Below are positions 40,227-41,405 of a stretch of 64,000 nt of DNA, one piece after another; the stretch's first letter is position 1; each line of letters opens with the position of its first letter. Source of the stretch: Dictyostelium discoideum (Eukaryota); contig CM000154.2 in the NCBI GenBank assembly GCA_000004695.1, forward strand, positions 4,768,001-4,832,000, in the 5' to 3' direction. A model generated the notes under the pieces. It made no database searches and had not been told where the DNA came from. It saw nothing but the letters and a program-made list of their open reading frames with translations. Both the position numbers and the translations under genes were made by a program.

Positions 40227-41405
40227 TTAATTGTGATAATCACTAATAACTATTAATTTTTTACCTTTTAATATTGGTACCAAACAAGTTTTATCTAAAA
40301 TTAAATTTGATTCATCAATTATAACCCAATCAAAATCATTTTTATCTTTTAAAAATTTATCTAATGAATTTATATTTGATGATGATAATATAATTCTTGA
40401 TTCATTAATAGTTTTATTAATTAATGATTTTTCTAATTTATTTAAATCCTTTTTTAAAGAAGTAATTTTTGAAATTGATGAATTTATATCAGACTTTTTT
40501 GAATCCAATGTATTATTAGCCAATTCAATTATATCTTGTTTAATTTGTTTAATTGATTTACCACCTTCACTATGTTTGATTTTATACTCTAATGAAATAT
40601 TTTTAATTTCGCTTGGACTACCAATTTTTGTAATTAATTCATTATTATTATTGTTATTATTTTTATCATCATACAAACTATTACAAATGAAATCAATTGA
40701 CTCGTTTGAAGAACTATATACTAATATTTTATTTTTATCATTTGATTTAATTAAATGTTTAATTATATCAGTTATTGTTTTAACTTTACATGTATTATTT
40801 GAATTATTAATTTTTATAATATCTTGATTATTATTAATAATATTATTTTCTAAATCTTTTAAAATTATTTCACTATTTTTAAATTGATCTTTAGTTGTGC
40901 AAATATTATCATTATTATTATCATCTTCGAATAAACTTTTATATTTTTCATAACCATTTACACCATTTAACGATTCTAATGTTTCTTTTAAAATTTTATT
41001 TTGATTTTCATTGAAATTAATTTTATCAATTGAAAATTTAATAAATGAATAATCTTCTTGTACCCATTTATATGGTTGTCCAAATGAACTGAATAAAGTT
41101 GGATCATCACAATCAATTGAAATTATAATTTTATTTGATTTAATTTTATAAATTTCACCAAATAATTGATAATTTATCATTTTGTTTGGTTTTGAACTTT
41201 GAAATCTTACACCAACAGAATCACCAATTTGAAATTCACAATCATTTTCAAATTGTAAATCACCACCATTTTCCATTACAAATTTTAAAAAAACTCTACC
41301 TAATAATCCAGTTGATCTTCCATCAATTAATACATTATTAATTATCATTTGACTATTAATTATTTGATCTCCTTTTTCACCATCAATTGATTGTTCGTTT
41401 TTCAT
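40227..41405 (-). CDS. Upf1/Sen1-like SF1 helicase N-terminal half with a degenerate Walker A. It is truncated right after motif II/III, so it is either a pseudo-helicase or a helicase-derived pseudogene.
   Basis: The C-terminus DWVIIDESNLILDKTCLVPILKGKKLIVISDYHN* aligns to the Upf1-family VIIDEaTQatEpEcLvPlvlGakqlILVGDhcQL. KILVYSSSNESIDFICNSL matches motif Ia (ILVCAPSNvAVD). The P-loop position reads NSNNTCKVKT instead of GPPGTGKT. No RecA2 motifs (IV-VI) follow. The ORF ends at a stop with no GT donor nearby. Confidence 0.55.
   Translation of the reverse strand: MKNEQSIDGEKGDQIINSQMIINNVLIDGRSTGLLGRVFLKFVMENGGDLQFENDCEFQIGDSVGVRFQSSKPNKMINYQLFGEIYKIKSNKIIISIDCDDPTLFSSFGQPYKWVQEDYSFIKFSIDKINFNENQNKILKETLESLNGVNGYEKYKSLFEDDNNNDNICTTKDQFKNSEIILKDLENNIINNNQDIIKINNSNNTCKVKTITDIIKHLIKSNDKNKILVYSSSNESIDFICNSLYDDKNNNNNNNELITKIGSPSEIKNISLEYKIKHSEGGKSIKQIKQDIIELANNTLDSKKSDINSSISKITSLKKDLNKLEKSLINKTINESRIILSSSNINSLDKFLKDKNDFDWVIIDESNLILDKTCLVPILKGKKLIVISDYHN

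What the first reader, a model, noticed from the sequence alone, without database searches (positions are those of the whole stretch)
40227..41405. Truncated Upf1-like SF1 helicase with degenerate P-loop (pseudo-helicase or pseudogene)
The ORF ends ...DWVIIDESNLILDKTCLVPILKGKKLIVISDYHN*. This is collinear with Upf1/Sen1/Smubp2 motif II-III (VIIDEaTQ...C.VPl..G.k..ILVGDh.QL), including the conserved Cys. Motif Ia (ILVYSSSNESID vs ILVCAPSNvAVD) is also present. The Walker A position reads NSNNTCKVKT, with both glycines and the Ser/Thr after the Lys lost. The ORF stops exactly before the 'QL' of motif III. No RecA2 domain (motifs IV-VI) exists in the next 500 bp or in the downstream 520-aa gene. 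So this is either a decaying helicase gene or a shortened ATPase-dead derivative.
Basis: partly seen in the sequence, partly recalled or inferred. Interest (0 to 1): 0.5.

Follow-up and report, generated by a model that had tools for sequence, protein, structure and literature searches.

The report
Truncated, ATPase-dead IGHMBP2 helicase paralog
This Dictyostelium discoideum gene (DDB_G0290969) is an extra copy of the IGHMBP2 RNA/DNA helicase that has lost its ATP-binding loop and its whole second motor domain, yet selection still keeps it intact, so it is a shortened, non-enzymatic "pseudo-helicase" rather than a dead gene.

Summary
ORF 40227..41405 (-) is D. discoideum AX4 gene DDB_G0290969 (392 aa). 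It hits Pfam AAA_11 (E 1.6e-17). From aa 21 to its last residues it is collinear with the IGHMBP2/SMUBP-2 helicase (hhalign E 2.8e-34).

- **What it covers:** the 1B barrel, a stalk helix, most of RecA1 (domain 1A) and the 1C insertion.
- **Where it ends:** inside motif III (GDHQQL -> SDYHN*).
- **Degenerate motifs:** Walker A reads NSNNTCKV instead of GPPGTGKT.
- **Missing parts:** RecA2, R3H and AN1 are absent from the locus, the downstream 545 bp and the whole window.

It is not a decaying pseudogene. The same truncated ORF lies in the same gene order in three other D. discoideum-complex assemblies and in D. citrinum.

- **Selection:** dN/dS is 0.30-0.40. It is 0.2-0.3 in the 1B and RecA1/1C parts and about 1 in the linker.
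- **Frame:** all internal indels are multiples of three.
- **Neutral expectation:** drift at the observed divergence would introduce many stop codons.

A canonical 1020-aa IGHMBP2 exists elsewhere in the species.

The best reading is a lineage-restricted, catalytically dead IGHMBP2-derived protein kept for a non-enzymatic role. That role (decoy or adaptor) is inferred, not shown. The finding is of moderate interest as a new variant of a known kind.

The parts
40227..41405 (-). Whole ORF including the TAA stop (40227-40229). This is DDB_G0290969, 392 aa, single exon.
   Evidence: ORF list and sequence. It is 100% identical over 100% of its length to NCBI 'hypothetical protein DDB_G0290969 [D. 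discoideum AX4]'.
41013..41348 (-). aa 20-131: homolog of the IGHMBP2 domain 1B beta-barrel. The first stalk helix of IGHMBP2 (about 40 aa) is missing or unalignable upstream of it.
   Evidence: hhalign aligns from aa 21. BLASTP to the D. purpureum paralog starts at aa 20. The AF2 model shows strands 21-32, 37-44, 63-68, 79-88, 92-98 and 124-128. dN/dS is 0.21-0.33. Domain limits come from PMC3505976.
40827..41012 (-). aa 132-193: second stalk helix, followed by a variable Asn/Asp-rich linker and the position of the lost Q motif.
   Evidence: Helices 133-148 and 151-159, then pLDDT below 50 for aa 161-177. dN/dS is 0.66-1.09, not different from 1. The 24-27 nt in-frame indels lie here.
40623..40826 (-). 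aa 194-261: first part of RecA1 (domain 1A). It holds the degenerate Walker A (NNSNNTCKVKT, 40776-40808) and motif Ia (ILVYSSSNESID, 40692-40727).
   Evidence: Alignments. Coordinates. NSN(N/T)(T/S)CKVKT is conserved in all five orthologs.
40401..40622 (-). aa 262-335: domain 1C helical insertion. This is the most constrained part of the protein.
   Evidence: Long helices 280-300 and 304-335 with pLDDT 78-91. dN/dS is 0.14-0.21. The stretch KHSEGGKSIKQIK...LEKSLINK resembles canonical KSSEGGQIIKGIK...REKSLIQQ.
40230..40400 (-). aa 336-392: second part of RecA1. It holds degenerate motif Ic (LSSSNINS, 40365-40388), motif II (FDWVIIDESN, 40305-40334) and the motif III remnant (LIVISDYHN, 40230-40256). 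The last helix and strand of domain 1A (about 40 aa) are missing.
   Evidence: Alignments. Coordinates. Human 1A extends to residue 440, whereas the match ends near residue 399.
39683..40226 (-). Intergenic spacer between the stop codon and the ATG of the next gene. It carries no helicase remnant.
   Evidence: Three-frame translation. tblastn gives nothing with E<1. Between strains it is 68-88% identical with 138-257 gap columns, unlike the ORF.

Best explanation
DDB_G0290969 is a lineage-restricted paralog of the SF1B helicase IGHMBP2/SMUBP-2.

It keeps the N-terminal half of the helicase core: the 1B barrel, one stalk helix, most of RecA1 and the 1C helical insertion. It has lost everything needed for motor activity:
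- the P-loop glycines and the Mg-binding Thr;
- the Q motif;
- most RNA-contact residues;
- the QL of motif III;
- the last helix and strand of RecA1;
- all of RecA2;
- the R3H and AN1 domains.

Shown here: it is a homolog of IGHMBP2; the truncation is real and shared with D. citrinum; the ORF is under purifying selection in the 1B and RecA1/1C parts; and a canonical full-length IGHMBP2 coexists in the species.

Inferred: it cannot hydrolyse ATP or clamp single-stranded RNA in the canonical 1A/2A channel. It therefore acts as a non-enzymatic protein. The most plausible role is a binding module that uses the conserved 1B/1C/RecA1 surfaces, either to hold a partner as an adaptor or to compete with canonical IGHMBP2 for one as a decoy.

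The stated confidence applies to 'a selected, catalytically dead, truncated IGHMBP2 derivative'. For the specific decoy or adaptor mechanism I would give only about 0.2.
For: - Homology: AAA_11 at E 1.6e-17. SMUBP-2 is the best PDB sequence match. hhalign against canonical IGHMBP2 gives probability 99.9%, E 2.8e-34, over aa 21-387. The AF2 model has pLDDT 72 and pTM 0.69. Its best Foldseek match is IGHMBP2 4b3f, E 1.4e-16, TMq 0.73.
- Loss of function motifs: shown by alignment A2. Nine RNA-contact residues are listed for human IGHMBP2 in PMC3505976. Only the motif Ia Asn is kept, T351 is replaced by Ser, the R270 and T353 equivalents are replaced, and five lie in the missing part.
- The truncation is real: no RecA2 remnant is found.
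- The truncation is not an exon-boundary artefact: the canonical gene and the D. purpureum paralog are both single-exon.
- Selection:
  - Orthologs ending at SDYH(N/H) occur in three further D. discoideum-complex assemblies and in D. citrinum, in the conserved order TRAF-like gene, this gene, 520-aa gene.
  - NG86 dN/dS is 0.30-0.40 for all pairs, similar to the neighbouring gene.
  - By domain: 1B 0.21-0.33, RecA1/1C 0.26-0.32, linker about 1 as an internal neutral control.
  - All internal indels are multiples of 3.
  - In simulated neutral drift the ORF stays open with P=0.02 at d=0.04 and P=0 at d>=0.09, against an observed dS of up to 0.4.
- A canonical 1020-aa IGHMBP2 with 1B, AAA_11, AAA_12, R3H and AN1 exists in D. 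discoideum and D. citrinum.
Against: - No expression or protein evidence could be reached.
- One D. cf. discoideum assembly has GAA->TAA at codon 54. The N-terminal domain is therefore dispensable or lost there, or this is a sequencing error.
- The protein evolves about 5 times faster than canonical IGHMBP2 over the same columns (distance 0.27 against 0.06 for D. discoideum versus D. citrinum).
- RecA1 lacks its last helix and strand, so stable folding is uncertain.
- The AF2 model was built from an alignment dominated by IGHMBP2 sequences, so its fold match is not independent evidence.
- No annotated ortholog was found in D. firmibasis or D. dimigraforme.
- The proposed decoy or adaptor role has no direct support.
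Confidence: 0.72

Rival explanations
1. It is a unitary pseudogene. On this view, a duplicated IGHMBP2 copy lost its 3' half and is drifting, and the open frame is a leftover.
For: - Catalytic motifs are degenerate and the gene is truncated.
- It evolves fast relative to the canonical gene.
- One assembly has a nonsense codon at codon 54, and another has a frameshifted extreme 5' end.
- No expression data could be reached.
Against: - dN/dS is 0.30-0.40 with p as low as 1e-9, and 0.14-0.33 in the folded domains, while the linker is about 1.
- All internal indels are in frame, whereas the adjacent spacer is riddled with indels.
- Neutral simulation gives 8-23 stop codons at the observed divergence.
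- The degenerate Walker A itself is conserved in all five orthologs.
Confidence: 0.08
2. The gene model is incomplete. On this view, a downstream exon or a separate nearby gene supplies RecA2, so the real product is a full helicase or a split helicase assembled in trans.
For: Dictyostelium genes often have short AT-rich introns. The ORF also ends inside a conserved motif, which looks abrupt.
Against: - No plausible splice donor is apparent by eye in the GT contexts listed at the ORF end; this was not scored. No coding sequence exists in the 545 bp before the next gene.
- tblastn with RecA2 of the canonical and D. purpureum proteins finds nothing with E<1 in the 64-kb window or in four orthologous loci.
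- The 520-aa neighbour has no helicase domain.
- Five independent annotations end at the same place.
- With the Walker A glycines and Thr gone, adding a RecA2 would not restore ATPase activity.
Confidence: 0.02
3. The protein is still a nucleotide-binding switch. On this view, the retained Walker A Lys (K207) and Walker B Asp-Glu (D364/E365) allow ATP binding without hydrolysis, and this regulates partner binding.
For: K207, D364 and E365 are invariant in all orthologs and also across the family alignment.
Against: - The P-loop backbone glycines (GxxGxGK[T/S]) are replaced by Asn/Asn/Cys, and the Mg-coordinating Thr is replaced by Val.
- The Q motif is gone.
- RecA2 is absent. From general SF1 helicase knowledge, its motifs V and VI complete the nucleotide site.
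Confidence: 0.05

Closest known systems
IGHMBP2 / SMUBP-2 (human structure 4B3F/4B3G; canonical D. discoideum ortholog of 1020 aa, P0185)
   Same: It is collinear over 1B, stalk, 1A and 1C up to motif III. Identity to the D. discoideum ortholog is 33-34%; the hhalign profile comparison with the canonical alignment gives E 2.8e-34. IGHMBP2 is the best sequence and fold match in the PDB. The Walker A Lys, motif Ia Ser-Asn, motif II Asp-Glu and the conserved Cys after motif II are retained.
   Different: It lacks the first stalk helix, the end of 1A, all of 2A (motifs IV-VI), R3H and AN1. Walker A, the Q motif, motif Ic and motif III are degenerate. Most RNA-contact residues are lost. It evolves about 5 times faster.
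D. purpureum DICPUDRAFT_75407 (567 aa, P0019), another degenerate IGHMBP2 paralog
   Same: It is 29% identical over aa 20-378. It groups with the truncated clade in 100% of NJ bootstraps, nested among group-4 Dictyostelium IGHMBP2 proteins. The two share 18 exclusive residue states. It also lacks R3H and AN1, and it is also single-exon.
   Different: It keeps an intact Walker A (GLPGTGKTT) and a RecA2 (AAA_12). It has lost the motif II Glu (DE->DS) and motif III. It is not in the same gene neighbourhood. Of the 18 shared states, 13 are Phe/Tyr/Ile/Asn/Lys, so long-branch or compositional attraction cannot be excluded.
Upf1 / Nam7 and other Upf1-like SF1B helicases (Sen1/SETX, Dna2, Aquarius)
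   Same: They share the superfamily architecture, with 1B and 1C inserted in RecA1. Foldseek gives E 1e-15 to 1e-9 and sequence E is about 5e-4 to Nam7.
   Different: They are more distant than IGHMBP2. There is no CH domain, and the same losses apply as listed for IGHMBP2.
Described pseudohelicases (yeast Utp25, PMC9539457; Deinococcus radiodurans PriA, PMC4504706)
   Same: Going by the papers' titles and abstracts as listed (I did not read the papers), these are helicase-derived proteins described as pseudohelicases, i.e. without helicase activity.
   Different: They belong to other superfamilies. From my own knowledge, not tested here, those proteins keep both RecA-like domains, whereas this one has lost RecA2 entirely and part of RecA1.

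Membership tests
Upf1-like SF1B helicase (functional enzyme) | Two RecA-like domains (1A and 2A) that form the ATP site and the nucleic-acid channel | tested here: not met
   The match ends at motif III. There is no AAA_12 hit and no RecA2 remnant in the locus, the window or the orthologous loci.
Upf1-like SF1B helicase (functional enzyme) | Motif I / Walker A, GxxxxGK[T/S] | tested here: not met
   GPPGTGKT is replaced by NSNNTCKV. This is conserved as NSN(N/T)(T/S)CKV in five orthologs.
Upf1-like SF1B helicase (functional enzyme) | Motif II, DExx (Walker B) | tested here: met
   FDWVIIDES, with D364 and E365 invariant. The Gln of DEaxQ is lost.
Upf1-like SF1B helicase (functional enzyme) | Motif III (GDxxQLPP) and motifs IV-VI | tested here: not met
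   Motif III reads SDYHN followed by the stop. Everything downstream is absent.
IGHMBP2/SMUBP-2 family (by descent) | Significant sequence similarity to the helicase N-terminal half, closest to IGHMBP2 | tested here: met
   AAA_11 scores 64.5 bits against a cut-off of 27. hhalign gives E 2.8e-34. The best non-self representatives are IGHMBP2 proteins of about 1000 aa. It nests within dictyostelid IGHMBP2 in the NJ tree.
IGHMBP2/SMUBP-2 family (by descent) | 1B beta-barrel and 1C helical insertion within RecA1 | tested here: met
   The alignment covers both. The model shows a barrel at aa 21-128 and a helical hairpin at aa 280-335. Pfam PF21138 (1B) was not reported for this protein itself, but it is reported for the D. 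purpureum paralog.
IGHMBP2/SMUBP-2 family (by descent) | C-terminal R3H and AN1 zinc-finger domains | tested here: not met
   They are absent here. They are present in all canonical dictyostelid orthologs.
Processed or unitary pseudogene | Frame disruptions and neutral evolution (dN/dS near 1) | tested here: not met
   The ORF is intact in 4 of 5 assemblies. dN/dS is 0.30-0.40. Internal indels are in frame. Neutral simulation is incompatible with an open frame. The exception is a nonsense codon in one assembly.
Pseudoenzyme (pseudo-helicase) with a retained non-catalytic function | Expressed protein with a demonstrable non-catalytic role | not testable with these tools
   No transcript, proteomic or genetic data could be reached. 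Only the selection signature supports a function.

The most novel reading that the evidence does not exclude
This could be a 'half-helicase' consisting of the IGHMBP2 1B barrel, RecA1 and 1C only. On this reading it has been kept in the D. discoideum/D. citrinum lineage as a trans-acting regulator. It might titrate a partner of canonical IGHMBP2 in translation or tRNA/ribosome biology. Alternatively, it might serve as an adaptor tied to the surrounding, rapidly expanding TRAF-like RING/MATH gene cluster. It would then be a natural separation-of-function fragment showing what the N-terminal half of IGHMBP2 binds independently of motor activity.
Probability: 0.15. Interest if true: 0.6.

Novelty: new variant of a known kind. 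Interest (0 to 1): 0.36.

Why it matters
IGHMBP2 is the gene mutated in human SMARD1 and CMT2S, and its cellular role is still poorly defined. A naturally selected fragment holding only 1B, RecA1 and 1C, with no ATPase and almost no canonical RNA contacts, would point to a motor-independent interaction surface in that half of the protein. D. discoideum is a tractable organism in which to find its partner.

More generally, this is a clean example of a helicase becoming a pseudoenzyme by losing a whole RecA domain. It is also a reminder that 'truncated with dead motifs' does not mean 'pseudogene'.

The practical impact is modest. The gene is restricted to a few very close species, and nothing is known about its expression.

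Tried and rejected
1. **Missing exon or intron at the ORF end.** No plausible splice donor was apparent by eye (not scored), and no coding potential exists in 39683..40226.
2. **RecA2 relocated elsewhere.** tblastn of canonical and D. purpureum RecA2 against the window and four orthologous loci gave nothing with E<1. The 520-aa neighbour has no Pfam domain.
3. **Truncation at an ancestral exon boundary (partial duplication).** The canonical D. discoideum gene (3063 nt for 1020 aa) and the D. purpureum paralog are both single-exon, so this is not supported.
4. **Shared gene order with D. purpureum DICPUDRAFT_75407.** No ORF from its +/-8 kb region other than the gene itself matches the window.
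5. **Wider orthologs.**
   - The word-indexed search found only 5 close relatives.
   - The exhaustive HMMER search found no other representative below E 1e-30.
   - The D. purpureum protein is a singleton.
   - Genomes of D. firmibasis, D. dimigraforme and others could not be searched at the DNA level with these tools.
6. **Expression evidence.** There were no papers mentioning the gene ID, no usable supplements and no transcript-like contigs.
7. **AFDB fold search.** The library was unavailable.
8. **First phylogeny script.** It timed out and was replaced by a custom NJ and bootstrap script. Some of its support values print at 101-104% because a clade and its complement were counted twice. 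Read those as about 100%.
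Full report
**1. What is there**

The window has about 22% G+C, and the ORFs named below match Dictyostelium discoideum AX4 records. ORF 40227..41405 on the minus strand encodes 392 aa ending ...VIIDESNLILDKTCLVPILKGKKLIVISDYHN*. It is identical over its full length to the NCBI entry 'hypothetical protein DDB_G0290969 [D. discoideum AX4]'. The ORF is therefore the current gene model: single exon, uncharacterised. 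No paper in the searchable library mentions the identifier.

**2. Checking the observation**

- Pfam AAA_11 is hit at E 1.6e-17 (64.5 bits, cut-off 27), over aa 194-389 = profile positions 17-246 of 257. AAA_12, the RecA2 half, is not hit.
- The best solved relative by sequence is human SMUBP-2/IGHMBP2 (E 2e-9, aa 196-390 against chain residues 207-399). Yeast Upf1/Nam7 is much weaker.
- In an alignment with canonical IGHMBP2 proteins the motifs change as follows:

| Motif | Canonical | This protein | Note |
|---|---|---|---|
| Walker A | IHGPPGTGKTTT | INNSNNTCKVKT | Lys kept; three Gly and the Thr after Lys lost |
| Ia | CGPSNLSVDN | YSSSNESIDF | Ser-Asn kept |
| Ic | STNTGAS | SSSNINS | degenerate |
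| II | FDWVVIDECAQALE | FDWVIIDESNLILD | Asp-Glu kept; Gln lost |
| III | LLLAGDHQQLPPT | LIVISDYHN* | stop inside the motif |

- The 545 bp between the stop and the next ATG translate to low-complexity sequence in all three frames.
- tblastn with the post-motif-III portion of D. discoideum IGHMBP2 and of a D. purpureum paralog finds nothing with E<1 anywhere in the 64-kb window or in four orthologous loci.
- The downstream 520-aa protein has no Pfam domain.

**3. What it derives from**

An exhaustive HMMER search of 1.84 billion representatives with the ortholog profile found only the protein itself below E 1e-30. The next hits are helicases of about 1000 aa. Among the hits that carry a source name are IGHMBP2/SMUBP-2 proteins, and the list includes the unnamed Acytostelium protein later used as the IGHMBP2 query.

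Profile-profile comparison with an alignment of canonical IGHMBP2 gives probability 99.9%, E 2.8e-34. It aligns 345 columns, aa 21-387 against residues 41-449 of the D. discoideum enzyme.

I mapped this onto the domain limits of the human crystal structure (PMC3505976): stalk 3-33 and 142-158, 1B 34-141, 1A 159-270 and 347-440, 1C 271-346, 2A 441-648. By that mapping the protein consists of:
- the 1B barrel;
- the second stalk helix;
- the first part of 1A;
- the whole of 1C;
- the second part of 1A up to motif III.

It lacks the first stalk helix, the last 40 or so residues of 1A, all of 2A, and the R3H and AN1 domains.

An AlphaFold2 model built with a 56-sequence alignment has mean pLDDT 72 and pTM 0.69. 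It shows a barrel at aa 21-128, Rossmann-like strands, and a long helical hairpin at aa 280-335. Its best Foldseek match is IGHMBP2 4b3f (E 1.4e-16, TMq 0.73), followed by Upf1, SETX/Sen1 and Dna2. The alignment that fed the model was mostly IGHMBP2, so this fold match is consistent with the homology but not independent of it.

**4. A canonical copy coexists**

D. discoideum, D. citrinum, D. firmibasis, D. dimigraforme and dictyostelids of other genera each have a 965-1035-aa IGHMBP2 with 1B, AAA_11, AAA_12, R3H and AN1. The D. discoideum gene lies at another locus and is single-exon. DDB_G0290969 is therefore an extra copy.

**5. Pseudogene or maintained gene?**

Proteins of 316-405 aa that are 71-92% identical, all ending at SDYH(N/H), are annotated in three other D. 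discoideum-complex assemblies and in D. citrinum; the D. citrinum protein runs six residues further. All lie in the same order: TRAF-like gene, this gene, 520-aa gene.

- **dN/dS.** Nei-Gojobori dN/dS is 0.30-0.40 for every pair, at dS up to 0.40. This is similar to the neighbouring 520-aa gene at 0.13-0.56.
- **By region.** The 1B part has 0.21-0.33 and the RecA1/1C part 0.26-0.32 (1C alone 0.14-0.21), with Fisher p from 3e-3 to 4e-8. The Asn/Asp-rich linker (aa 136-193) has 0.66-1.09 and acts as an internal neutral control.
- **Indels.** In a nucleotide alignment, every indel after the extreme 5' end is a multiple of three: 3, 6, 15, 18, 21, 24 or 27 nt. The adjacent intergenic spacer has 138-257 gap columns.
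- **Simulation.** Under AT-biased neutral mutation the ORF stays open with probability 0.02 at d=0.04 and 0 at d>=0.09.
- **Direction of bias.** AT-biased mutation should inflate apparent dN/dS in a neutral sequence rather than deflate it, so the estimate is conservative. This point is an inference.
- **Conserved degenerate motif.** The degenerate Walker A, NSN(N/T)(T/S)CKVKT, is itself conserved.

The truncated protein has therefore been under purifying selection since before the D. discoideum/D. citrinum split.

Caveats:
- One D. cf. discoideum assembly has GAA->TAA at codon 54 (L002 4932-4934).
- Another assembly has a frameshifted first 15 or so codons with an alternative ATG.
- The protein evolves about five times faster than canonical IGHMBP2 over the same columns.

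**6. Origin**

D. purpureum DICPUDRAFT_75407 (567 aa) is a second degenerate IGHMBP2 paralog. It is 29% identical to aa 20-378.
- Walker A is intact.
- The motif II Glu is replaced (DE->DS).
- Motif III is lost.
- RecA2 is present.
- R3H and AN1 are absent.

In a neighbour-joining tree of 344 shared columns it groups with the truncated clade in 100% of 500 bootstraps. The pair nests within group-4 Dictyostelium IGHMBP2 (86% and 75%). The two share 18 exclusive residue states, against 4 shared by the truncated clade with the D. discoideum-core canonical proteins. However, 13 of the 18 are Phe/Tyr/Ile/Asn/Lys, the residues favoured by AT-rich drift. The loci do not share neighbouring genes.

Either there was one duplication in the group-4 ancestor followed by different decay paths, or there were two independent duplications joined by long-branch attraction. 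I cannot decide between these. No annotated ortholog appeared for D. firmibasis or D. dimigraforme, and their genomes could not be searched at the DNA level.

**7. How it most likely works**

Shown: the protein lacks the P-loop glycines, the Mg-binding Thr, the Q motif and the whole RecA2 domain. From general SF1 knowledge, RecA2 motifs V and VI complete the nucleotide site.

Nine RNA-contacting residues are described for human IGHMBP2: H411, T407, Q507, D565, R596, N245, T351, T353 and R270 (PMC3505976).
- Five lie in the missing part.
- The equivalents of R270 and T353 are replaced by Glu and Ile.
- T351 becomes Ser.
- Only the motif Ia Asn is kept.

Inferred: the protein has no ATPase or translocase activity and cannot clamp RNA in the canonical channel. 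What selection preserves is the 1B barrel and, above all, the 1C hairpin with the RecA1 scaffold.

The most economical mechanism is a non-catalytic binding module. It could act as an adaptor, or as a competitor of canonical IGHMBP2 for a partner that recognises this half of the protein. I put about 0.72 on 'a selected, catalytically dead, truncated IGHMBP2 derivative'. I put only about 0.2 on the decoy or adaptor mechanism specifically.

Rivals:
- Plain pseudogene: about 0.08.
- Nucleotide-binding switch using the retained Lys and Asp-Glu: about 0.05.
- Missing exon or split helicase: about 0.02.

**8. Comparison with what is known, and novelty**

By descent this is an IGHMBP2-family member. 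By function it fails the defining tests of a helicase: RecA2, Walker A and motifs III-VI are not met.

Helicase-derived proteins described as pseudohelicases are known, for example Utp25 and Deinococcus PriA. From my own knowledge those keep both RecA-like domains. A selected derivative with only an incomplete RecA1 plus 1B and 1C is an unusual variant. The gene is annotated but uncharacterised.

I rate it a new variant of a known kind, with interest 0.36. The point for specialists is a natural separation-of-function fragment of a disease-relevant helicase in a tractable organism. This is tempered by its very narrow phylogenetic range and the absence of expression data.

**9. Context**

The gene sits in a cluster of TRAF-like RING/zf-TRAF/MATH genes. 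The cluster lies near two tandem polyketide synthase genes and a xanthine-dehydrogenase-like gene. This region is rich in lineage-specific gene families, which fits a young, fast-evolving paralog.

Noticed in passing
window 41440-41660: A long, nearly perfect tetranucleotide microsatellite lies immediately upstream of the ORF's ATG: (AAAT)n on the minus strand, (ATTT)n on the plus strand, about 200 bp. On the plus strand it produces a spurious 86-aa 'LFIY' ORF.
   Followed up: no
window 38120-39682 (-): The downstream 520-aa protein has no Pfam domain. It is conserved next to the truncated helicase in all five assemblies (512-524 aa), with dN/dS of 0.13-0.56. Its function is unknown.
   Followed up: partly
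window 535-1935, 34337-35917, 42461-43798, 46825-47973 (all -): Four paralogous TRAF-like genes (RING, TRAF zinc fingers, MATH) surround the locus. This looks like a lineage-expanded cluster.
   Followed up: partly
window 42461-42560 (-): The mechanical ORF of the TRAF-like gene ends in a run of about 30 Tyr codons. The overlapping 61-aa ORF reads poly-Ile there. This is a trinucleotide repeat that probably lies in an intron or 3' region, since annotated orthologs are 447-460 aa from spans longer than their coding length.
   Followed up: no
window 5451-12971 and 18799-26256 (-): There are two very large ORFs in tandem (2506 and 2485 aa). The first is a highly reducing polyketide synthase (AT, DH, MT, ER, KR, ACP and a terminal reductase). 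Duplicate tblastn chance hits about 13.3 kb apart suggest a recent tandem duplication.
   Followed up: no
window 49183-54036 (-): A 1617-aa ORF with no Pfam hit lies in a stretch with unusually strong AT skew (-0.47 and -0.37) and higher G+C (0.24-0.29) than its surroundings.
   Followed up: no
L005 8001-9704 (D. purpureum GL870965.1): DICPUDRAFT_75407 is itself a probable pseudo-helicase. It is an IGHMBP2 paralog with an intact Walker A, but the motif II Glu is replaced by Ser, motif III is lost, and TRAR has become TRSK in motif VI. It has no R3H or AN1 domain, and no close relative exists in the databases.
   Followed up: partly
L002 4932-4934 (D. cf. discoideum JBTAPI010000034.1): One assembly carries a single-base nonsense change (GAA->TAA) at codon 54 of the ortholog. 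The annotated protein there starts at Met76 and lacks much of the 1B domain. This is either a real loss-of-function allele or a sequencing error.
   Followed up: partly
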